Source of the DNA: a virus
Virus genome (UHGV): UHGV-0874476
Direction: 5' to 3' (one strand)
Length of the DNA stretch: 13,335 nt
Each line of letters opens with the position of its first letter. Position 1 is the stretch's first letter. The notes beneath the pieces are model-generated. The model did no database searches. It saw only the letters and a list, made by a program, of their open reading frames with translations, and was not told the origin of the DNA. The translations under genes and the position numbers were made by a program. Below, piece after piece: positions 2,181-13,335 of the stretch.

Positions 2181-2214
2181 TAAAAGAAAAAGCACCGAGA
2201 TTTCTCTCAGTGCT
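2181..2214 (-). terminator. Rho-independent terminator-like hairpin on minus strand
   Basis: minus-strand RNA AGCACUGAGA-GAAA-UCUCGGUGCU (10-bp stem with one G-U, GNRA loop) followed by UUUUUCUUUUU; the G-U is a C-A mismatch on the plus strand, so the structure is strand-specific. Confidence 0.55.
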
Positions 2215-2274
2215 CACTTTATTCTTTCACGATACTATTATATCTTAAATTAGCGCCCCCTAGGAACTCACTTT

Positions 2275-2682
2275 TTACCGTTTTTTGCTCAAAAGATAAA
2301 AGAAATACCGTCTTCGGTCAAGAAAAGAAGCTTCACTCATGGGGATTTTAGATATATCCCTAAGATACCAGAACGGTTGCTCATAACAGGCTGATTTGAT
2401 TATGTATTCCCACATTTCTGGAGATGCTTCTTTTGCAGTCTCTTCAATCATCTTAATTCTTTTTGAAACATTCGCCCTCTTAATTGCCAAGTCGCAAGTT
2501 TCATCATTGATATTGTTAGTCTGAGAATATACCATACCATCTATACACCGGCTTTTCGTTGTGGGCTCAAGTTCATTCAGTTCTTCCTTCCATTCTGGAT
2601 ACTGTTCGCAGAATCCGCATAGTTCCTTATATCTTTTGGCTGATATTCCATATTTTTGTAATGTTAATGTTCTTTTCTTCAA
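2275..2682 (-). CDS. hypothetical 135-aa protein between terminase and portal (TTG start)
   Basis: TTG start 2682 with AGGAGG SD 8 nt upstream that overlaps the terL stop codon (tight coupling); first ATG is only at codon 50; four Cys in N-terminal half, basic C-terminus. Confidence 0.6.
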   Translation of the reverse strand: MKKRTLTLQKYGISAKRYKELCGFCEQYPEWKEELNELEPTTKSRCIDGMVYSQTNNINDETCDLAIKRANVSKRIKMIEETAKEASPEMWEYIIKSACYEQPFWYLRDISKIPMSEASFLDRRRYFFYLLSKKR

Positions 2683-2694
2683 TTCTGATACCTC

Positions 2695-4407
2695 CTAATA
2701 AGGGCTTCTTACAATTCGAGATTCTTTTCGTCCAAGTGTATCTTGTACACATTCAGCTAACATACTAAGCGAATCTATTCCGTCATCATGTAGCACTTTT
2801 GCCTTTGTTGTATAAGTACAAACATTCCCCATGAATAATCCGTAATCAGATTTTGGTGTATAAAGACTCGGATCTAAAAACAGACAATGTTTCTTAATCC
2901 AGTCTGCATTAACCAATATTTTTGTTTCCTTATTTGCCGTTGTATATTTCGTTTCAATGCTTGTCCGGCACTTTCCTTTAACCATCTTTTCAATGTTATC
3001 TGCGATTCGTCCTCCGGCTTGGTTCGACTCAAATCTTACTTTATGCGGATTATGCTCAATGATTATGTCTGCTGTTTTCCTGTCCAAAGTGTCGTAATCC
3101 GTGTTATCGTCAAATACTACTGCTGGAATATAGAAATCTTCGCCAAACTGATAAGCAATGGGTAATGACTCAAAGTCTGTTCCCTTATCTTTGGTATCAC
3201 ACACGCCCCATATAGCATCTGGTTCTCTATCCGGAAAAATAGTAAATTGCATTTGTTTCTCTGGTACTTGATCTTTTGAAAAGAAAAATCTTCTCAGCTC
3301 AGATGCAGGGAGAAGCAATCCTTCTCTTTCGATCGGTTGCTGCTGATATAAACAGTTGAAAGAAATATCATCCATGGACTCTTTAGCATCCATAAAATAT
3401 TTCTTAGAAAACCCATTTACAGTAAACATGAAGTTACTTTCTCCGTTTTCATCTAAAGCCGGAATTGCTATGAATTTAGCTTTTGGATTCCCTTCGTAAA
3501 GTTGTTGTAGCTTACCTATTGGATCATGTACCGACCACCTAGTCGCTATATAAATTTCTTTACACCCCTCTAATCGTCTGGAACGTAAATCATTGACAAC
3601 CTTTGTCCAAAGGGTTTCTAATCGGTTTTTGTTCAATGCCTCTTCGATACCAGATACAAGGTCATCGGCTGTAAGAAATCTATTACATCGGGTAGCACCT
3701 GTAAGGGAACCGTCTATAGAGCGGAATGTCCATGTCTTAAATCGTCCATTTCTTTCAAGATTTACAGTTGTTTCTTTCGCATTGGTATTGGTAAGCTGTA
3801 CTGTCGGGAAAATCTCATGCCATGTATATTCCACCGGATCGTTAATGATTTCAAGCACACCATCATAAAGGGAACGTGTCAAAATGCTACTATGTGCTGA
3901 TGAAAGGTTGAAATCGTTCGGAAACCATCCGCCCACAAGCGAAAGAAAGAAATCTTCAAGTGTGGATTTTCCACATCCGGGCGGAACGCTCAGCCCAAAT
4001 ATATCCAATTCATCATCCATTAAATCTTGCAGGCTCTGTATAATTTGATGTTTTACGAACACTTCCCGTCTTGGTTCATAAAATCTTTCTTTTGGAAGTC
4101 GATTCTTCTCTAAATAAAGTAGCCCGCTGTCTACCTGATAGTTTTGGGCTTCCAATAGTAAATACTTCCAGTACAAATCATCAAATTCTCCGCTGCCGGT
4201 CTGAGCCGCCATATAAGCAGCCATCTCATGTGCATACTTGCTGATTTTCATGGCGTAGTCCCGGACTTCCTTATTTTCAGAGAAGTCAAAATCTTCTCTC
4301 ATATTCAGAAGCAAATCCAGGCAATCCCTCTGGTTAACTTTGTTCTTCAATCCGTCATTTATAATTTGTTGGAATAGTCCTTTGTACCATTCCATAGTTC
4401 CTTCCAT
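2695..4407 (-). CDS. terL: phage terminase large subunit
   Basis: 570-aa ORF; Walker A-like PPGCGKST; C-terminal nuclease-like segment ending LHDDGIDSLSMLAE typical of terminase RNase H-like domains; AGGAGG SD upstream of ATG 4407. Confidence 0.88.
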   Translation of the reverse strand: MEGTMEWYKGLFQQIINDGLKNKVNQRDCLDLLLNMREDFDFSENKEVRDYAMKISKYAHEMAAYMAAQTGSGEFDDLYWKYLLLEAQNYQVDSGLLYLEKNRLPKERFYEPRREVFVKHQIIQSLQDLMDDELDIFGLSVPPGCGKSTLEDFFLSLVGGWFPNDFNLSSAHSSILTRSLYDGVLEIINDPVEYTWHEIFPTVQLTNTNAKETTVNLERNGRFKTWTFRSIDGSLTGATRCNRFLTADDLVSGIEEALNKNRLETLWTKVVNDLRSRRLEGCKEIYIATRWSVHDPIGKLQQLYEGNPKAKFIAIPALDENGESNFMFTVNGFSKKYFMDAKESMDDISFNCLYQQQPIEREGLLLPASELRRFFFSKDQVPEKQMQFTIFPDREPDAIWGVCDTKDKGTDFESLPIAYQFGEDFYIPAVVFDDNTDYDTLDRKTADIIIEHNPHKVRFESNQAGGRIADNIEKMVKGKCRTSIETKYTTANKETKILVNADWIKKHCLFLDPSLYTPKSDYGLFMGNVCTYTTKAKVLHDDGIDSLSMLAECVQDTLGRKESRIVRSPY

Positions 4408-4446
4408 TGAAAAAGAGCCTCCTTCCCCTGTTTATTTAGGAAAGTC

Positions 4447-4468
4447 CGGCTCTTGATTTCGGCTCTTG
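4447..4468. repeat. tandem 9-bp direct repeat cggctcttg x2 (4-bp spacer) inside a weak inverted repeat, ~40 bp upstream of terL
   Basis: exact copies at 4447-4455 and 4460-4468 in the 67-bp lipoprotein-terL intergenic region. Confidence 0.5.
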
Positions 4469-4474
4469 CGACTT

Positions 4475-4837
4475 TTATCGTATTCTGATAATTTTTCTTT
4501 CTATTATTTCTCCATTTTTATATGTGTTTCGAATTTCTACAGAAATATTATCTCCTATTTTTGAGTTGTAAAATATTGGTGCACCAAATGCTCCTTTTGA
4601 CCATGAATTTTCTTCATAATGCAAATCATACGGCTCATAATAAACTTCGATATGCCACTCATACCTATGAGTAATAGCAAACCAGTGTCGCATATCCAAT
4701 TCTTGTATTTCTGCACTCACAATTTCATATTCGTATGTTAATTGTTGGTTGTTCTCAGAAACTTCTATTTCTCTTCCAGAACATCCAGTTAGGATCAATG
4801 TTAAAAATATACACAACATGATTTTCAAAAACTTCAT
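4475..4837 (-). CDS. small lipoprotein (120 aa)
   Basis: ATG 4837 preceded by GGGAGAAAA SD; N-terminus MKFLKIMLCIFLTLILTGCSG has hydrophobic signal plus lipobox L-T-G-C; the ORF-track start at 4945 lacks an RBS. Confidence 0.6.
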   Translation of the reverse strand: MKFLKIMLCIFLTLILTGCSGREIEVSENNQQLTYEYEIVSAEIQELDMRHWFAITHRYEWHIEVYYEPYDLHYEENSWSKGAFGAPIFYNSKIGDNISVEIRNTYKNGEIIERKIIRIR

Positions 4838-4875
4838 ATTTTCTCCCAACTTGTAAGAAATCCTTACAGGTTCAA

Positions 4876-5118
4876 TCATCTCACATATAATGTTCCATCT
4901 GCATTTAATCTTGGAGTAATCCCTTCCGACGTTGAAATATACCATACTCCAGTTTCTTCATCCCGAAAAGCATATACAAAGCACGAGCCAGAATTAAGTA
5001 AGATACTGTAATCTATAGCATATTCATATTCTTTACGATTTCCATTTTTACATCCAGTTAATCCAAAGGCCAAAATAACTACTACTGTAATAATCAATGG
5101 TAATTTCCAATTTTTCAT
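4876..5118 (-). CDS. small lipoprotein (80 aa)
   Basis: ATG 5118 preceded by GAGGAA SD; N-terminus MKNWKLPLIITVVVILAFGLTGCKNG has signal peptide plus lipobox. Confidence 0.6.
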   Translation of the reverse strand: MKNWKLPLIITVVVILAFGLTGCKNGNRKEYEYAIDYSILLNSGSCFVYAFRDEETGVWYISTSEGITPRLNADGTLYVR

Positions 5119-5121
5119 GTC

Positions 5122-5535
5122 CTATTCCTCAACTTTCTTCATTTCTGGTAATGGTTCATCACTCATTCTCAATGGTTCCCTAGAATCAACGCACCAATCA
5201 TTTTTATTTTCGCTGTCTTTCCATAACTGATGCCGAATTACTTGCCATATATCCTCTGCGATTAACTGTTCTTCTGACTTATCGTTCCTCTGTCCATCCC
5301 AAATAATTCGTCCGGCACATTCAAGGACTTTCCGAACCGCCTCACGTTCTGTAATATACCTCTCAAAAATTTTTTCGTGGTTCGGATTATTGGGCGAAAG
5401 GTCAATTCCTTTCATGACTAACGAATCCGCCAAATCTCCCCACTGGTTCATACGGATACGAAAGTATTCTTCCAGTGCTTCTTTGATTAAGATTGTTTGT
5501 TTTTCTGTAATTGTTAGCGTATATTTCTTTTCCAT
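5122..5535 (-). CDS. hypothetical protein (137 aa from ATG 5535)
   Basis: ATG 5535 preceded by GGAG at ~7 nt; upstream ATG 5550 has no RBS; 4-nt gap to upstream gene stop. Confidence 0.55.
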   Translation of the reverse strand: MEKKYTLTITEKQTILIKEALEEYFRIRMNQWGDLADSLVMKGIDLSPNNPNHEKIFERYITEREAVRKVLECAGRIIWDGQRNDKSEEQLIAEDIWQVIRHQLWKDSENKNDWCVDSREPLRMSDEPLPEMKKVEE

Positions 5536-5539
5536 ACCA

Positions 5540-5776
5540 TCACTCCACATTCACAATGAAACTCTGTCTGCACTTGCTTGCCTTACAAATATATGGCATC
5601 TTATGTATCTTCGTGTCTGGAAGAATCTTAATCAATTTCTTATGGCAAAAAGGACAGGTAACAAACTTCCCATCCTTGCATTCTTTTATTTCCGCTTCAC
5701 CATTCCATGTCGGAGCGTTCATGAACTCGTCAAAACTTCTCCCTGACATTTCCCGTATTACTTCTGTCATACTCAT
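5540..5776 (-). CDS. hypothetical small Cys-rich protein (78 aa, CPFC...C..C)
   Basis: ATG 5776 overlaps stop of upstream gene (ATGA coupling); zinc-ribbon-like Cys spacing. Confidence 0.55.
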   Translation of the reverse strand: MSMTEVIREMSGRSFDEFMNAPTWNGEAEIKECKDGKFVTCPFCHKKLIKILPDTKIHKMPYICKASKCRQSFIVNVE

Positions 5777-7671: not shown

Positions 7672-7722
7672 ACCACGAAAGCTTTCTTCACAACAACAAC
7701 CGGATAAAATCATTGCTGTGCA

Positions 7723-7799
7723 TTGCCCTGAGTGGATTCGAACCACCGACAGCACGCCAGTTCATGTGTACGCTGCTCTACCAACTGAGCTACAGGGCA
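7723..7799 (-). tRNA. tRNA-like gene with canonical acceptor, D-arm and T-arm but non-canonical anticodon arm; identity undetermined, possibly pseudo-tRNA
   Basis: minus strand UGCCCUG-UA-GCUC-AGUUGGUA-GAGC ... GGUGG-UUCGAAU-CCACU-CAGGGCA-A; the 26 nt between D-arm and T-arm cannot form a 5-bp stem with 7-nt loop. Confidence 0.45.
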
Positions 7800-7912
7800 A
7801 ACCTTTTGATTTCGTAAACCGCCTATAATCCTCGGAAATCGTCAGAACTCCATGACGTTCCTTACCTCCAAACTAGGTTTTTAAAGCGCTTTATGGCTTT
7901 TACTTCCGCTTT

Positions 7913-7970
7913 GACATATGGATTGCTCGTCAGCAAATTACGCTCCGGATACCAGAGATCACCATATGTC
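7913..7970 (-). other. 58-nt three-way-junction structured element immediately 3' of tRNA-Thr
   Basis: minus strand GACAUAUGG...CCAUAUGUC (9-bp closing stem) enclosing hairpins CUCUGG-UAU-CCGGAG (one G-U) and UUGCU-GACG-AGCAA. Confidence 0.35.
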
Positions 7971-7972
7971 AG

Positions 7973-8044
7973 AGCCAGAAACCGGACTCGAACCGACAAT
8001 ATCAGCATTACAAGTACTGCGTTCTACCATTGAACTATTCTGGC
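7973..8044 (-). tRNA. tRNA-Thr (anticodon UGU)
   Basis: hand-folded cloverleaf: acceptor GCCAGAA/UUCUGGC, U8 A9, D-stem GUUC/GAAC, anticodon stem CAGUA/UGCUG, loop CUUGUAA, T-arm GUCGG-UUCGAGU-CCGGU, 72 nt. Confidence 0.88.
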
Positions 8045-8296
8045 TACTTAATAAACACCAGTAAACGCTATGCGAAAACCGGATTCCTTTTCTGAACCTG
8101 TCAGATAGGTAAAATATTCCCTTATAAAACCACTTGTCCAACTTATTTACCATACAGGTGTGGCACTAATAATTTACTTCCAGGAATCTTCCAGAATTAC
8201 CGACTACTGCTAATCACGGTCTATGGTCTTATCTCTCTGGAGAAGTTTTTTGCAAGGTTCTTCAGCAGGTATAAGTTGCCTTGCTATATGGAAAAG

Positions 8297-8369
8297 TACA
8301 GGGAGTAGGAGTCGAACCCACAATCGCTGGATATAAGCCAGGTGCAACGTACCGCATCACCTTCCCTGC
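8297..8369 (-). tRNA. probable tRNA, anticodon tentatively UAU (Ile, decoding AUA); atypical A8, weak D-stem, G1-U72
   Basis: acceptor GCAGGGA/UCCCUGU, anticodon stem CUGG/CCAG with loop CUUAUAU, T-arm GUGGG-UUCGACU-CCUAC, 73 nt. Confidence 0.5.
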
Positions 8370-8533
8370 AAAACGGCATTTCTGCCGTTAGCAACATGTT
8401 TTTCGTGCTATGCCTAAGCGCTAGGAAATATTTTCTATTTCCAAAACCTCCCGGCACTTGTGACGCACCTTTAATCAGCTCTCCGCTAGGAGGTTCTAGT
8501 ATAAAGGAGGTCTATCAAAAAAATGATAACAAA

Positions 8534-8605
8534 CGGGGATTGTAGGATTCGAACCTACGTATGCAAGAGTCAAAATCTTGTGTGTTTCCTCTTCACCAAA
8601 TCCCT
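8534..8605 (-). tRNA. tRNA-Gln (anticodon UUG)
   Basis: hand-folded cloverleaf: acceptor AGGGAUU/AAUCCCC (A1-C72 mismatch), 3-bp D-stem, anticodon stem CAAGA/UCUUG, loop UUUUGAC, T-arm GUAGG-UUCGAAU-CCUAC, discriminator G, 72 nt. Confidence 0.88.
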
Positions 8606-9098
8606 ATACTACGTTGCGATAAAAAGTACGATTCATAATATTTATAATTGTTGTTTTTGAAACCCCATAAACTTCCGCGATTCTCCTAGTTGATGTTTTC
8701 CCTTTTTGTTCTCTTATAAAACGAACATCTTTTTCCGTAAGTTTTCTGTTATTATATAATTCATTTTTTTTGCTTTCTTCAATCAAATGATATTTTGTAT
8801 TTTCCTTTGGTGTTACCCACTCTAAATTATCAACATAAGGATTTTTCTTATTTTCGTCTTTATGATGCACTATTTTCTTATTGTCATGATTCGGAATAAA
8901 CGTTTCAGCAACCGCCTTGTGAACTCTAATTCCTTTCACTGCTCCTCTTTTTCCAAGCGGTATATACACCATTAAGTAACCAGCCTTATTAACATTAAAT
9001 TTGTATATACGATTTGTCTTTAAATTTTTAATATTTCCATTTGTATCAATAACAAAATCCGCATATTCAATTCCCCCATATACCATAGTTTTAAACAT
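8604..9098 (-). CDS. HNH homing endonuclease-like protein (N-terminal NUMOD4-like segment, HNH_3-like core, C-terminal helix-turn-helix)
   Basis: motifs GIEYADFVIDTNGNIKNL and HHKDENKKNPYVDNLEWVTPKENTKYH; ATG 9098 preceded by AAAGGAG; stop codon overlaps first nucleotides of tRNA-Gln; ORF-track start 9173 is TTG without RBS. Confidence 0.75.
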   Translation of the reverse strand: MFKTMVYGGIEYADFVIDTNGNIKNLKTNRIYKFNVNKAGYLMVYIPLGKRGAVKGIRVHKAVAETFIPNHDNKKIVHHKDENKKNPYVDNLEWVTPKENTKYHLIEESKKNELYNNRKLTEKDVRFIREQKGKTSTRRIAEVYGVSKTTIINIMNRTFYRNVV

Positions 9099-9213
9099 AA
9101 TGCCACATTCTCCTTTACTGCGGATATTCCCAGTTTTATTCTCCGAATACCCCATTGTGCTTTTTCTTTGCAACCATTCTCTTCTGAACTCATAGCCTGA
9201 CAGGGCAAAATTT

Positions 9214-10274: not shown

Positions 10275-10596
10275 TCTTAAACCTCTCCATTTCGTTCACA
10301 CTCATTCCGACAATACCAGCGCTCTCCGAACTATCTGTCGCCCGAAAATGTGCTTTCGGATGCTGAGGATACATATACTCAAACATGGCATAGTTTGCAA
10401 TATCACAAAGATAATCCCCATTTCCAGTTTCTTTGTATTTCTGCAAGCATTTTTCCAATGTTGGAATAGCATGTACATTTCCTCTGCCGAAATTCTGTGC
10501 CGCCGGGCCATATTTGTAGTAGCTTACCTCAACACGATTCCGGCGAAGCTCATCGAACCTGGTACTGTATTCTTTTGACATATCCAGTTTACTCAT
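10258..10596 (-). CDS. hypothetical protein (112 aa from ATG 10596)
   Basis: ATG 10596 preceded by GAGGAG at 7 nt; ORF-track start 10641 lacks RBS. Confidence 0.55.
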   Translation of the reverse strand: MSKLDMSKEYSTRFDELRRNRVEVSYYKYGPAAQNFGRGNVHAIPTLEKCLQKYKETGNGDYLCDIANYAMFEYMYPQHPKAHFRATDSSESAGIVGMSVNEMERFKNEEYC

Positions 10597-10678
10597 TTTC
10601 TTTCTCCTCAAATAATCTGCACTCCTGGCAGTAACCATCATATGCTACATCGGCACACATTTCGGAATCGCCATTAAA

Positions 10679-12185: not shown

Positions 12186-12539
12186 TCACTTCTTTTCAAA
12201 ATAAAATTTTACCGGAGCATCATTTTCTTTTACAATTCCGAAGTTCTTCGCAAGACGATAAATGAAATTCTTTTCTAATCTTTCATGCAAAGTCTGTAAT
12301 CTTTCCCGAAATTTTTCAATCGTATAAGTCGATTTGTAAAAATTACACATTCTACAAGCCGGATTGTAGTTTTCAATATCATTCGCTCCATTATGCCAGT
12401 AAAGAGGATTGATGTGATCTACCTGCATGTCCTTGTATTCCAGTTCACAACCGCAATAGGCACAATGTCCAGAATATTTGTTATATACCTGAATCCGTAT
12501 TGGTTTTGGAATTGGTTTTCGTTTTTTCTGTTCTTGCAT
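12186..12539 (-). CDS. HNH endonuclease (117 aa)
   Basis: classic HNH motif CAYCG...DHINP...N...CRMCN; ATG 12539 preceded by GGAG at 6 nt, 1 nt after upstream stop. Confidence 0.8.
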   Translation of the reverse strand: MQEQKKRKPIPKPIRIQVYNKYSGHCAYCGCELEYKDMQVDHINPLYWHNGANDIENYNPACRMCNFYKSTYTIEKFRERLQTLHERLEKNFIYRLAKNFGIVKENDAPVKFYFEKK

Positions 12540-12540
12540 A

Positions 12541-12834
12541 TTAATCTCCACTGATGTAAATGAAATCCGCATTTCTAAAACTCACATTCGGAAACATGTT
12601 TACAGCCACATTACACAAGGCAATAAACAAATCGCCTCTGTCATCTACAGTCTTAACTTTTCCATTTGTACCCTTGCAAACTATATTCTGCCCAGAAGCG
12701 TCTTTGGTTATAAAATAATCTGATTCATCGTTTAAGATAAAATCCATCGAAAGTGTTTTGCAAAGAATCCGAAATGCTTCTTCTGGTTCTATGTCAATAT
12801 TAAATGTTTGTTTTGATGTAACGTCAACTAACAT
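12541..12834 (-). CDS. hypothetical protein (97 aa); shares an identical 18-aa / 55-nt segment with the upstream gene
   Basis: ATG 12834 preceded by GAGGAA at 5 nt; C-terminal RGDLFIALCNVAVNMFPN encoded by repeat copy 12585-12639. Confidence 0.55.
   Translation of the reverse strand: MLVDVTSKQTFNIDIEPEEAFRILCKTLSMDFILNDESDYFITKDASGQNIVCKGTNGKVKTVDDRGDLFIALCNVAVNMFPNVSFRNADFIYISGD
12585..12639. repeat. direct repeat copy 1 (55 bp, identical to 13281-13335)
   Basis: cattcggaaacatgtttacagccacattacacaaggcaataaacaaatcgcctct; flanks diverge on the left. Confidence 0.9.
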
Positions 12835-12843
12835 GTTGGTTCC

Positions 12844-13335
12844 TCATTTCGCTTCTGTCATATCATCTACCAGTTTGACCGTATTCTTCATGGCTGTTTC
12901 CAGAATCTCTGGCGTAATTTCTAGTCCTCTGATTTCTCCGCTTCTGGTTTTCCCAGCGCATACACAATCCACAATCATTTCAATCACATCCAACAGGTTT
13001 ACATCTTCCGGACATCTGGAAAGCAAGTGATGCCTTTCGGTATTAGCATGATACTGATACCATTTCCCAGATACAAAATCTATTCCGCCAGCCATAGTTT
13101 CAAGAAAGTCATCGTAGAGCATCTTTTCTTCTGTTTTCTTCGTCCAATCATGTTTCTCTCCGTTTTCACAGAACATAGTTCCAATCTCATCCATTACTGC
13201 CCTTACATCTGCAATATGGCTGTCGTTTGCTTCCTGAAATTGCTTAAAGTTAATTCCTTTCGGAGCTGTTCTTGTGTCTCCATTCGGAAACATGTTTACA
13301 GCCACATTACACAAGGCAATAAACAAATCGCCTCT
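12844..13335 (-). CDS. hypothetical protein, 5'-truncated by window edge (at least 160 aa)
   Basis: frame is open to window end; ORF-track M at 13326 is a TTG inside the repeat; stop TGA at 12844-12846 sits in the SD of the next gene. Confidence 0.6.
   Translation of the reverse strand, partial: RGDLFIALCNVAVNMFPNGDTRTAPKGINFKQFQEANDSHIADVRAVMDEIGTMFCENGEKHDWTKKTEEKMLYDDFLETMAGGIDFVSGKWYQYHANTERHHLLSRCPEDVNLLDVIEMIVDCVCAGKTRSGEIRGLEITPEILETAMKNTVKLVDDMTEAK
13281..13335. repeat. direct repeat copy 2 (at least 55 bp, truncated by window end)
   Basis: exact match to 12585-12639 at offset 696 bp. Confidence 0.9.

What the first reader, a model, noticed from the sequence alone, without database searches (positions are those of the whole stretch)
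4475..5118. Two small lipoproteins encoded immediately upstream of terL
Both have signal peptides ending in an LTGC lipobox. Small phage lipoproteins such as T5 Llp and Streptococcus phage Ltp act in superinfection exclusion by blocking receptor or DNA entry. Their position next to the packaging genes rather than in a lysogeny module is unusual.
Basis: partly seen in the sequence, partly recalled or inferred. Interest (0 to 1): 0.45.

Follow-up and report, generated by a model that had tools for sequence, protein, structure and literature searches.

The report
Two accessory phage lipoproteins before terL
A gut-bacterial phage carries two small, unrelated surface-anchored lipoprotein genes in a swap-prone slot just before its DNA-packaging gene; they are real, conserved genes from uncharacterised phage families, they probably act at the cell surface to keep other phages out, and that function is inferred, not shown.

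Summary
On the minus strand, Lp1 (4876-5118, 80 aa) and Lp2 (4475-4837, 120 aa) each have a basic N-terminus, a hydrophobic core and an LTGC lipobox. They are the only ORFs in the window that pass two lipoprotein rules; shuffled sequence gives 0.02 on average.

Both genes are under purifying selection (dN/dS 0.08-0.35). The lipid-attachment Cys is conserved in both families, and a few relatives carry a transmembrane anchor instead.

The position reflects a hypervariable cargo slot between the early region and terL, not a link to packaging. Close relatives hold Lp1 alone, Lp2 plus other genes, an exonuclease, an HNH endonuclease or TnpB there. Lp2 is an exact ORF-sized insertion after a conserved 39-nt junction. 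A conserved terminator-like hairpin separates it from terL.

Lp1 relatives sit in early regions of unrelated phages, including phi29-like podoviruses. Superinfection exclusion during infection is the best guess (about 0.4) and is untested. Interest is modest.

The parts
4876..5118 (-). Lp1: 80-aa lipoprotein precursor. Signal peptide is residues 1-22, lipobox LTGC, Cys23 at 5050-5052. The mature part is 58 aa and acidic (pI 4.8), with a DUF6440-type C-terminal domain (F-x-D-x-x-TGVWY ... ITPRLNADG-x-LY).
4475..4837 (-). Lp2: 120-aa lipoprotein precursor. Signal peptide is residues 1-18, lipobox LTGC, Cys19 at 4781-4783. The mature part is 102 aa, acidic (pI 5.0), aromatic-rich and all-beta. 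The family has no Pfam assignment and only weak PHROG hits.
4838..4876 (-). Conserved 39-nt junction element, ATTGAACCTGTAAGGATTTCTTACAAGTTGGGAGAAAAT: an imperfect inverted repeat plus an RBS. Cargo cassettes are joined here; Lp2 begins immediately after it.
4408..4474 (-). terL leader with a conserved terminator-like hairpin (AAGAGCC...GGCTCTT followed by a T-run). The 3' arm of the hairpin contains the terL Shine-Dalgarno sequence.
2695..4407 (-). Large terminase subunit (570 aa), downstream of the slot.
5122..5550 (-). 142-aa conserved gene that bounds the slot on the upstream side (phrog_36225, 'transcriptional regulator'). Its stop lies 3 nt before the Lp1 ATG.
2275..2682 (-). 135-aa conserved gene directly after terL (phrog_11237), followed by a strong terminator-like site at 2215..2190.

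Best explanation
Shown: Lp1 and Lp2 are two unrelated, phage-encoded lipoprotein precursors. After Sec export and Lgt/Lsp processing they would be tethered by an N-terminal lipid to the outer face of the cytoplasmic membrane. The host is most likely a monoderm gut Clostridia/Lachnospiraceae bacterium.

Shown: they are accessory cargo in a recombination-prone slot between the last conserved early-region gene and terL. Lp2 is an ORF-only cassette inserted directly after a conserved 39-nt junction that supplies its ribosome-binding site. A terminator-like hairpin then precedes terL.

Inferred: with no promoter of their own, both genes are expressed together with the upstream early/middle genes during infection. 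Their folded acidic beta domains then act at the membrane/cell-wall interface to stop further phage from adsorbing or injecting DNA. This would be 'lytic conversion' logic as in T5 Llp, with the surface topology of Ltp. It could also keep progeny from being wasted on infected cells and debris.

The anatomy part is near certain (about 0.9). The stated confidence refers to the exclusion function.
For: Lipoprotein signals are specific and conserved. Some relatives in both families replace the lipobox with an N-terminal transmembrane helix, so membrane tethering of an extracytoplasmic domain is the selected feature.

Selection is purifying, dN/dS 0.08-0.35.

Distribution is patchy among phages with 97% identical terL. 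The slot holds Lp1 alone (L010-13), Lp1 plus an exonuclease (L014), an exonuclease plus Lp2 (L006), Lp1 plus HNH (L021), Lp2 or Lp1 plus RHH and TnpB (L002, L024), or LemA plus a TM protein (L077).

The Lp2 insertion is exactly ORF-sized (4479..4836 relative to L010), so it carries no promoter of its own.

Lp1 relatives lie in early regions of unrelated phages: directly after the DNA polymerase in phi29-like 16-17 kb podoviruses, beside a Cro/CI switch, and before SSB. Distant Lp2 relatives lie among accessory genes of large phages.

Both mature domains are acidic. The active domain of Ltp is also negatively charged, and those charges are important for interaction with the tape-measure protein (PMC3952083).

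Early-expressed or membrane-anchored small exclusion proteins are an established class (PMC9586334, PMC3952083).
Against: There is no homology or fold similarity to any characterised exclusion protein. There are no expression data and no target.

The genes are not next to a receptor-binding or tail gene, as llp and cor are, and not in a lysogeny module, as ltp is.

Patchy distribution and an early-region location fit many accessory functions equally well.

The host assignment is indirect.
Confidence: 0.4

Rival explanations
1. Host-benefit (conversion) factors. The lipoproteins are surface proteins that change host physiology, for example adhesion, glycan or nutrient binding, or immune interaction, and do not act against other phages.
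For: Related phages look temperate: CI-like repressor, Bro/ANT, serine recombinase, and carriage on contigs up to 412 kb. Lp1's best, weak structural neighbours are single beta-propeller blades, including fucose lectins and sialidases. Lp2 is rich in conserved aromatic residues.
Confidence: 0.15
2. Helpers of the phage's own lytic cycle at the envelope. Examples: modulating cell-wall hydrolases or lysis timing, or conditioning the wall for release.
For: The mature domains are extracytoplasmic and membrane-anchored. The genes are probably co-expressed with lytic genes. In phi29-like genomes the Lp1 homologue lies within 1.3 kb of the holin and endolysin genes.
Against: The genes are dispensable: near-identical phages lack one or both. 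They are never adjacent to holin or endolysin in the window's clade. There is no similarity to known lysis proteins.
Confidence: 0.12
3. Immunity-type lipoproteins that neutralise an extracellular toxin, bacteriocin or hydrolase, whether phage- or competitor-encoded.
Against: The hits are non-significant. No toxin gene is adjacent in any of the contexts examined.
Confidence: 0.05
4. Two-component spanin or another outer-membrane lysis lipoprotein pair.
For: Two adjacent small genes, each with a lipobox.
Against: Both are lipoproteins, and neither is a type II membrane i-spanin. They are well folded and are not in a lysis cassette. They occur separately in relatives. The likely host is monoderm.
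Confidence: 0.01
5. Chance ORFs or mis-called signals, meaning they are not lipoproteins.
For: No SignalP or LipoP run and no experimental evidence.
Against: Shuffles give 0.02 such ORFs per window against 2 observed. There are 107 and 13 close homologues, plus 93 representative clusters, with a conserved Cys. dN/dS is below 0.35. AF2 models are confident.
Confidence: 0.02

Closest known systems
Ltp of Streptococcus thermophilus phage TP-J34 (superinfection-exclusion lipoprotein)
   Same: [quoted passage not shown] The active domain is negatively charged. The genes are accessory and patchily distributed (PMC3952083).
   Different: Ltp has a serine-rich spacer and a tandem repeat domain. It lies in the lysogeny module and is transcribed from the prophage (PMC3952083). 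Lp1 and Lp2 have no serine-rich spacer, have single all-beta domains, and give no Pfam hit to an Ltp family. They sit at the early/late boundary without a promoter of their own.
T5 Llp / Cor family (receptor-jamming lipoproteins of coliphages)
   Same: Very small phage lipoproteins made during lytic infection ('lytic conversion'). They are carried by lytic as well as temperate phages (PMC9586334).
   Different: Llp and Cor are outer-membrane lipoproteins of Gram-negative hosts. They bind the periplasmic face of a TonB-dependent transporter, have a conserved intramolecular disulphide, and lie next to the receptor-binding protein gene (PMC9586334). Here the host is probably monoderm, the neighbours are early genes and terL, mature Lp2 has no Cys beyond the lipid-attachment Cys, and there is no fold match.
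Pfam DUF6440 (PF20037), uncharacterised
   Same: The C-terminal 32 residues of Lp1 match the model. 88 of 95 family members match at E <= 0.01.
   Different: The window protein scores 23.2 bits, below the gathering score of 26.5. The family has no described function, and only one paper in the searched library mentions it, in a gene list.
Phage morons / accessory cargo slots
   Same: Non-essential genes inserted between conserved modules, with a variable set of occupants that includes selfish elements (HNH, TnpB).
   Different: By the textbook description (recalled, not tested), classical morons carry their own promoter and terminator. Lp2 is an ORF-only insertion that uses the RBS of a conserved junction element.

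Membership tests
Bacterial lipoprotein precursors (Lgt/Lsp substrates; PROSITE PS51257 / G+LPP) | Basic n-region, uncharged h-region, and a lipobox [LVI][ASTVI][GAS]C with the Cys at position 15-35 | tested here: met
   Both proteins pass both rules, no other ORF in the window does, and shuffles give 0.02. The Cys is conserved family-wide.
Bacterial lipoprotein precursors (Lgt/Lsp substrates; PROSITE PS51257 / G+LPP) | Actual diacylglyceryl modification and signal peptidase II cleavage | not testable with these tools
   Needs globomycin sensitivity, lipid labelling or mass spectrometry. SignalP and LipoP were not available.
Pfam DUF6440 (PF20037) - Lp1 | Score at or above the gathering threshold (26.5 bits) | tested here: inconclusive
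   The window protein scores 23.2 bits, E 6e-5. 88 of 95 relatives match at E <= 0.01. Three relatives carry a precomputed PF20037 assignment.
Ltp-type exclusion lipoproteins | Lipid anchor on the outer face of the cytoplasmic membrane | tested here: met
   Lipobox present. The monoderm host is inferred.
Ltp-type exclusion lipoproteins | Serine-rich spacer followed by the Ltp tandem repeat domain | tested here: not met
   The linkers are KNGNRKEYEY.. and SGREIEVSENNQQ.., neither serine-rich. No Ltp-family Pfam hit at E <= 0.1. Both are single all-beta domains. Family features taken from PMC3952083.
Ltp-type exclusion lipoproteins | Located in the lysogeny module and transcribed in the prophage | tested here: not met
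   Location: between the early region and terL. Expression could not be tested.
Llp / Cor exclusion lipoproteins | Gene adjacent to the receptor-binding or tail-tip gene | tested here: not met
   The neighbours are the 142-aa early gene and terL. Family features taken from PMC9586334.
Llp / Cor exclusion lipoproteins | Conserved intramolecular disulphide and sequence or fold similarity to Llp | tested here: not met
Llp / Cor exclusion lipoproteins | Gram-negative host with a TonB-dependent transporter as target | tested here: inconclusive
   The host was not identified directly. Relatives occur in Lachnospiraceae MAGs and human-gut phage contigs, and the nearest named phage infects [Clostridium] innocuum.
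Two-component spanins (Rz/Rz1) | An o-spanin lipoprotein paired with a type II membrane i-spanin in a lysis cassette | tested here: not met
   Both genes are lipoproteins, they occur separately in relatives, and no holin or endolysin is nearby.
Known anti-phage defence proteins (PADLOC-DB) | Match to any defence-system model | tested here: not met
   No hit at E <= 1.
Classical moron | Own promoter and terminator flanking the inserted gene | tested here: not met
   The Lp2 insertion is 4479..4836 relative to L010, ORF only. No minus-strand sigma-70-like site better than 9/12 lies upstream, and the number of promoter-like sites found is no more than chance gives.

The most novel reading that the evidence does not exclude
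Lp1 (DUF6440) and Lp2 would be the founding members of two structurally new families of surface-anchored exclusion proteins of gut Clostridia phages. These families are shared by temperate siphophages, phi29-like podoviruses and large phages, and are made during lytic growth.

The Lp1 domain looks like a single beta-propeller blade. It might oligomerise on the membrane into a lectin-like ring that masks a cell-wall glycopolymer receptor or blocks the injection site.
Probability: 0.25. Interest if true: 0.55.

Novelty: new variant of a known kind. Interest (0 to 1): 0.33.

Why it matters
Phage-phage exclusion in the dominant gut Firmicutes is almost unexplored, and very few exclusion proteins are known for any Gram-positive host.

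Lp1 and Lp2 give two compact, well-folded and widely distributed candidates. Lp1 has at least 107 close clusters, and Lp2 has 93 clusters at 50% identity. Both can be tested directly by expression in culturable Lachnospiraceae.

The conserved junction and the terminator-like hairpin before terL also define a precise cargo insertion site. That site could be mined for further accessory or counter-defence genes.

If the proteins do nothing against phages, the finding reduces to two ordinary accessory ORFans.

Tried and rejected
- Megablast of the whole window against GenBank phages: only a 74% terL fragment and a 50-nt tRNA-like match.
- tblastn of Lp1 and Lp2 against 50,697 GenBank phage records: no match.
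- NCBIfam: only sub-threshold hits through the signal peptides.
- PADLOC: nothing.
- PDB profile searches: only signal-peptide matches to Firmicutes lipoproteins, plus a non-significant WD40-like blade match (Ika8, E 0.1).
- BFVD Foldseek for Lp2: best E 0.029, TM at most 0.40.
- The afdb50 library was unavailable.
- Scan of viral contigs with the broad Lp2 alignment failed because no stretch was conserved enough.
- RNA structure for the junction element: weak (-6 kcal/mol) with no compensatory changes, so not supported as an RNA element.
- Linkage of the 142-aa gene with Lp1 across lineages: seen only in 3 extra loci, so not a module.
- The long 156-aa reading of Lp2 (start 4945) was rejected because it overlaps Lp1 and no homologue supports it.
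- The spanin reading was rejected (see rival explanations).
- Literature: no paper on DUF6440 function or on these families.

Full report
**Observation**

All genes in the window run on the minus strand. Two small ORFs lie directly upstream of the large terminase gene (terL, 2695-4407). terL matches phrog_38 at E 7e-50 and has a T7-type RNaseH-like nuclease domain.

- Lp1 is 5118..4876 (80 aa). It begins MKNWK-LPLIITVVVILAFG-LTGC.
- Lp2 is 4837..4475 (120 aa). It begins MKFLK-IMLCIFLTLI-LTGC.

The mechanical ORF list gives Lp2 as a 156-aa frame starting at 4945, which overlaps Lp1. All 13 close homologues start at the MK.. position, and GGGAG lies 6 nt upstream of the 4837 ATG, so 4837 is the real start.

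I applied the PROSITE PS51257-type rule and the Gram-positive G+LPP pattern to all 251 candidate start-ORFs of at least 50 aa in six frames. Only these two genes pass. In 100 shuffles of the window the mean was 0.02 and the maximum 2. SignalP and LipoP were not available.

**They are real genes**

Lp1 has 107 homologous clusters at E <= 0.01. Lp2 has 13. A profile of the Lp2 alignment finds 93 representative clusters at 50% identity, nearly all 100-145 aa long.

The lipid-attachment Cys is invariant in the 13 close Lp2 relatives and in a 95-sequence Lp1 alignment. By the strict rule, 92 of 107 Lp1 relatives and 13 of 13 Lp2 relatives pass. In the extended Lp2 family, 68 of 93 have a lipobox. 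Most of the others are fragments or carry an N-terminal transmembrane helix instead. Two Lp1 relatives also have such a helix. So what is conserved is tethering of the folded domain to the outside of the membrane.

Pairwise dN/dS against relatives is 0.19-0.23 for Lp1 and 0.08-0.35 for Lp2.

**Families**

The C-terminal motif of Lp1 (F-x-D-x-x-TGVWY ... ITPRLNADG-x-LY) matches Pfam DUF6440 at 23.2 bits, just under the gathering score of 26.5. 88 of 95 relatives match at E <= 0.01. Lp1 is therefore a branch of this uncharacterised family. It also matches phrog_11767 and phrog_8801, both of unknown function.

Lp2 and its extended family have no Pfam, PHROG, NCBIfam or PADLOC assignment. The weak hits that appear run through the signal peptide.

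Neither protein has a tblastn match in 50,697 GenBank phage records. Both are known only from metagenomes. One nr entry is annotated merely as a lipid attachment site in a Caudoviricetes MAG.

**Structure**

AlphaFold2 with the family alignments gives confident models.

- Lp2: mean pLDDT 83.7, pTM 0.70. An N-terminal helix (the signal peptide) is followed by six beta strands.
- Lp1: mean pLDDT 84.4. A signal helix is followed by a roughly 15-residue linker and a four-stranded meander.

Foldseek against predicted viral structures gives nothing better than E 0.029 and TM 0.40 for Lp2.

Neither protein resembles Ltp or Llp. The propeller-blade likeness of Lp1 is a lead only.

**Why they sit next to terL**

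Look-ups of homologues returned many contigs of the same phage clade, with terL 81-98% identical, an SPP1-type portal and a Phage_cap_E capsid. In all of them a conserved gene run precedes a variable stretch and then terL. The run comprises a 95-aa gene, a Cys_rich_KTR gene and usually the 142-aa gene.

The variable stretch holds one of the following:
- Lp1 alone (L010-13, L022-23).
- Lp1, then a 44-aa ORF, an Rv2179c-like exonuclease and a 77-aa ORF (L014).
- A 95-aa ORF, the exonuclease, a 72-aa ORF and then Lp2 (L006).
- Lp1, then a 53-aa ORF and an HNH endonuclease (L021).
- Lp1, or Lp2 with a 70-aa ORF, followed by an RHH gene and an IS605-type TnpB (L024; L002-5).
- LemA and a 249-aa membrane protein, followed by the exonuclease (L077).

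No other locus has Lp1 and Lp2 together, so they are independent cargo.

blastn fixes the boundaries. Relative to L010, the window has an insertion of 4479..4836, which is the Lp2 ORF and nothing else. Relative to L014, Lp2 replaces 923 bp.

A 39-nt element (4876..4838) occurs once in every one of these phages, with 3-6 substitutions. This holds even where terL is only 31% identical (L002). It is an imperfect inverted repeat followed by GGGAGG. It always follows the first cargo gene and is followed by the ATG of the next cassette or by the terL leader. It does not behave as a conserved RNA hairpin. Its role, whether recombination boundary, protein-binding site or shared RBS, is open.

The small ORF after the junction in L014 and L077 starts MKFLK.. 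like Lp2, which suggests a remnant of an Lp2 signal sequence.

**What separates them from terL**

The 67-nt leader (4474..4408) folds into a hairpin, AAGAGCC...GGCUCUU, followed by U5. It ends 3 nt before the terL ATG, and the terL Shine-Dalgarno sequence lies in its 3' arm. The fold energy is -23.3 kcal/mol with z = -2.2.

The hairpin is conserved in seven relatives. In L021 a different 8-bp hairpin plus U7 occupies the same place, again with the Shine-Dalgarno sequence in the 3' arm. The simple terminator scan missed it. That scan found a canonical site only after the 135-aa gene downstream of terL.

I read this as follows. Lp1 and Lp2 lie at the distal end of the upstream early/middle transcription unit, and their adjacency to packaging genes is positional. 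This is an inference from sequence. No transcript data exist.

**Contexts elsewhere**

Lp1 relatives occur in many other phage lineages, always inside same-strand runs of small early-region genes.

- In 16-17 kb phi29-like podoviruses the homologue directly follows the protein-primed DNA polymerase. These genomes have DNA_pol_B_2, Podovirus_Gp16 and Phi29_MCP.
- In roughly 40-kb phages it lies 1.2 kb from a divergent Cro/CI pair.
- In a Lactobacillus prophage it precedes SSB.
- In a 151-kb Lachnospiraceae-binned contig it lies between a metallophosphatase and an RNA ligase.

Distant Lp2 relatives lie after an RNA ligase and a metallophosphatase (L072), near Fic and RtcB (L071), or three genes upstream of a diversity-generating retroelement cassette (L007). 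Both families are therefore mobile accessory genes of phages.

**Host and lifestyle**

Related sequences come from human and animal gut samples and from Lachnospiraceae MAGs. The nearest named phage by portal protein (29% identity) infects [Clostridium] innocuum.

Clade members carry a CI-like repressor, XRE regulators, Bro/ANT and small serine recombinases. One Lp1 cluster is found on contigs up to 412 kb. So the phage is probably temperate and its host a monoderm Firmicute. Both points are inferences.

**Mechanism**

Shown:
- Two exported, lipid-anchored (by rule), folded, acidic beta domains (pI 4.8 and 5.0).
- Dispensable and horizontally mobile.
- No promoter of their own, in the case of Lp2.

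Inferred: they are made together with early/middle genes during infection and act at the membrane/wall interface. The best-supported function is superinfection exclusion or receptor masking during lytic growth. This is the logic of T5 Llp, which is made early, blocks further adsorption and prevents loss of progeny on debris (PMC9586334). It would be combined with the topology of Ltp, a lipoprotein on the outer face of the cytoplasmic membrane of a Gram-positive host that blocks DNA injection (PMC3952083). I put this at about 0.4.

Rivals are a host-benefit surface factor (0.15), a helper of the phage's own lysis or release (0.12), an immunity-type lipoprotein (0.05), a spanin (0.01) and an artefact (0.02). 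The rest is unassigned. Nothing here discriminates sharply among the first three.

**Comparison and novelty**

The genes work like known phage exclusion lipoproteins only in format. They fail the defining features of the Ltp family (spacer, repeat domain, lysogeny-module location), of the Llp/Cor family (neighbour gene, disulphide, fold) and of spanins.

Lp1 is a borderline member of DUF6440. Lp2 belongs to an unnamed family. Both folds lack a convincing solved or predicted viral counterpart. I rate this as a new variant of a known kind, namely small phage-encoded surface lipoproteins carried as accessory cargo.

Interest is modest (0.33). A specialist would not be surprised by phage lipoproteins. 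The two families are nevertheless widespread, compact and directly testable candidates in a host group where exclusion mechanisms are essentially unknown.

Noticed in passing
window 4838-4876 (-); also L002-6, L010-16, L021-24, L077: A 39-nt junction element (an inverted repeat CCTGTAAG/CTTACAAG plus GGGAGG) is conserved at 85-92% even between phages whose terL is 31% identical. It occurs once per genome and marks where cargo cassettes join. Its function is unknown; candidates are a recombination boundary, a protein-binding site or a shared RBS.
   Followed up: partly
window 4408-4474 (-): A terminator-like hairpin plus U-run ends 3 nt before the terL start codon, with the terL Shine-Dalgarno sequence in its 3' arm and the 5' arm (AAGAGCC) duplicated 7 nt apart. 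It is conserved across the clade. In L021 a different hairpin of the same design replaces it. This may be a regulated attenuator of packaging-gene expression.
   Followed up: partly
window 12585-12639 and 13281-13335: A perfect 55-nt direct repeat with 696-nt spacing. The second copy runs into the end of the window, so the repeat may be longer. It brackets the DUF5662 gene (12844-13326). The two adjacent ORFs share the peptide FIALCNVAVNMFPN. This could be a duplication, an insertion scar or an assembly artefact.
   Followed up: partly
window 7722-8606 (-): A cluster of four tRNA genes: Thr-TGT, Ile-TAT, Gln-TTG and one with an irregular 4-base anticodon call (7722-7800). An HNH_3 endonuclease gene (8604-9173) abuts tRNA-Gln. 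A second HNH gene lies at 12186-12572.
   Followed up: no
window 2275-2682 (-) and 2190-2215: A conserved 135-aa gene (phrog_11237, with a weak RinA-like hit) sits between terL and the portal gene and is followed by the strongest canonical terminator-like site. No recognisable small terminase gene lies upstream of terL, so this gene or the 142-aa gene may fill that role.
   Followed up: no
L006 8537-11308; L002 10651-12130; L024 6275-7753; L021 6398-7117: Selfish elements cluster around terL in relatives: an intein/LAGLIDADG-interrupted terL (923 aa), RHH plus IS605-type TnpB insertions, and an HNH endonuclease in the same slot.
   Followed up: partly
L014 10280-10414; L077 (reverse strand, about 10523-10660): The small ORF after the junction begins MKFLK(I/M)L.C like the Lp2 signal peptide and then diverges. 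This is probably a remnant of an Lp2 gene replaced by the exonuclease cassette.
   Followed up: partly
L007 7737-11827: An Lp2 homologue lies three genes upstream of what looks like a diversity-generating retroelement cassette: two 207-209-aa proteins with WWW..GVRPFCIL C-termini, an Avd-like 123-aa protein and an RVT_1 reverse transcriptase.
   Followed up: no
L017 6516-9667; L072 4234-6348: In large phages the unrelated Lp1-like and Lp2-like genes occupy similar positions beside RNA ligase and metallophosphatase (tRNA-repair-type) genes. This hints that the two families are interchangeable cargo.
   Followed up: no
window 4863-4891 (+): The best sigma-70-like promoter match in 5.5 kb (CTTACA-17-TATAAT, 10/12) lies on the antisense strand, overlapping the junction and the Lp1 3' end. 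Its -10 box is not conserved in relatives that lack Lp1, so it is probably chance.
   Followed up: partly
L066 58-450, L067 4935-5327, L045 3207-3560: Homologues of the 142-aa slot-flanking gene occur about 0.5-2.4 kb upstream of Lp1-like genes in two unrelated phage lineages. This is too sporadic to call a module.
   Followed up: partly
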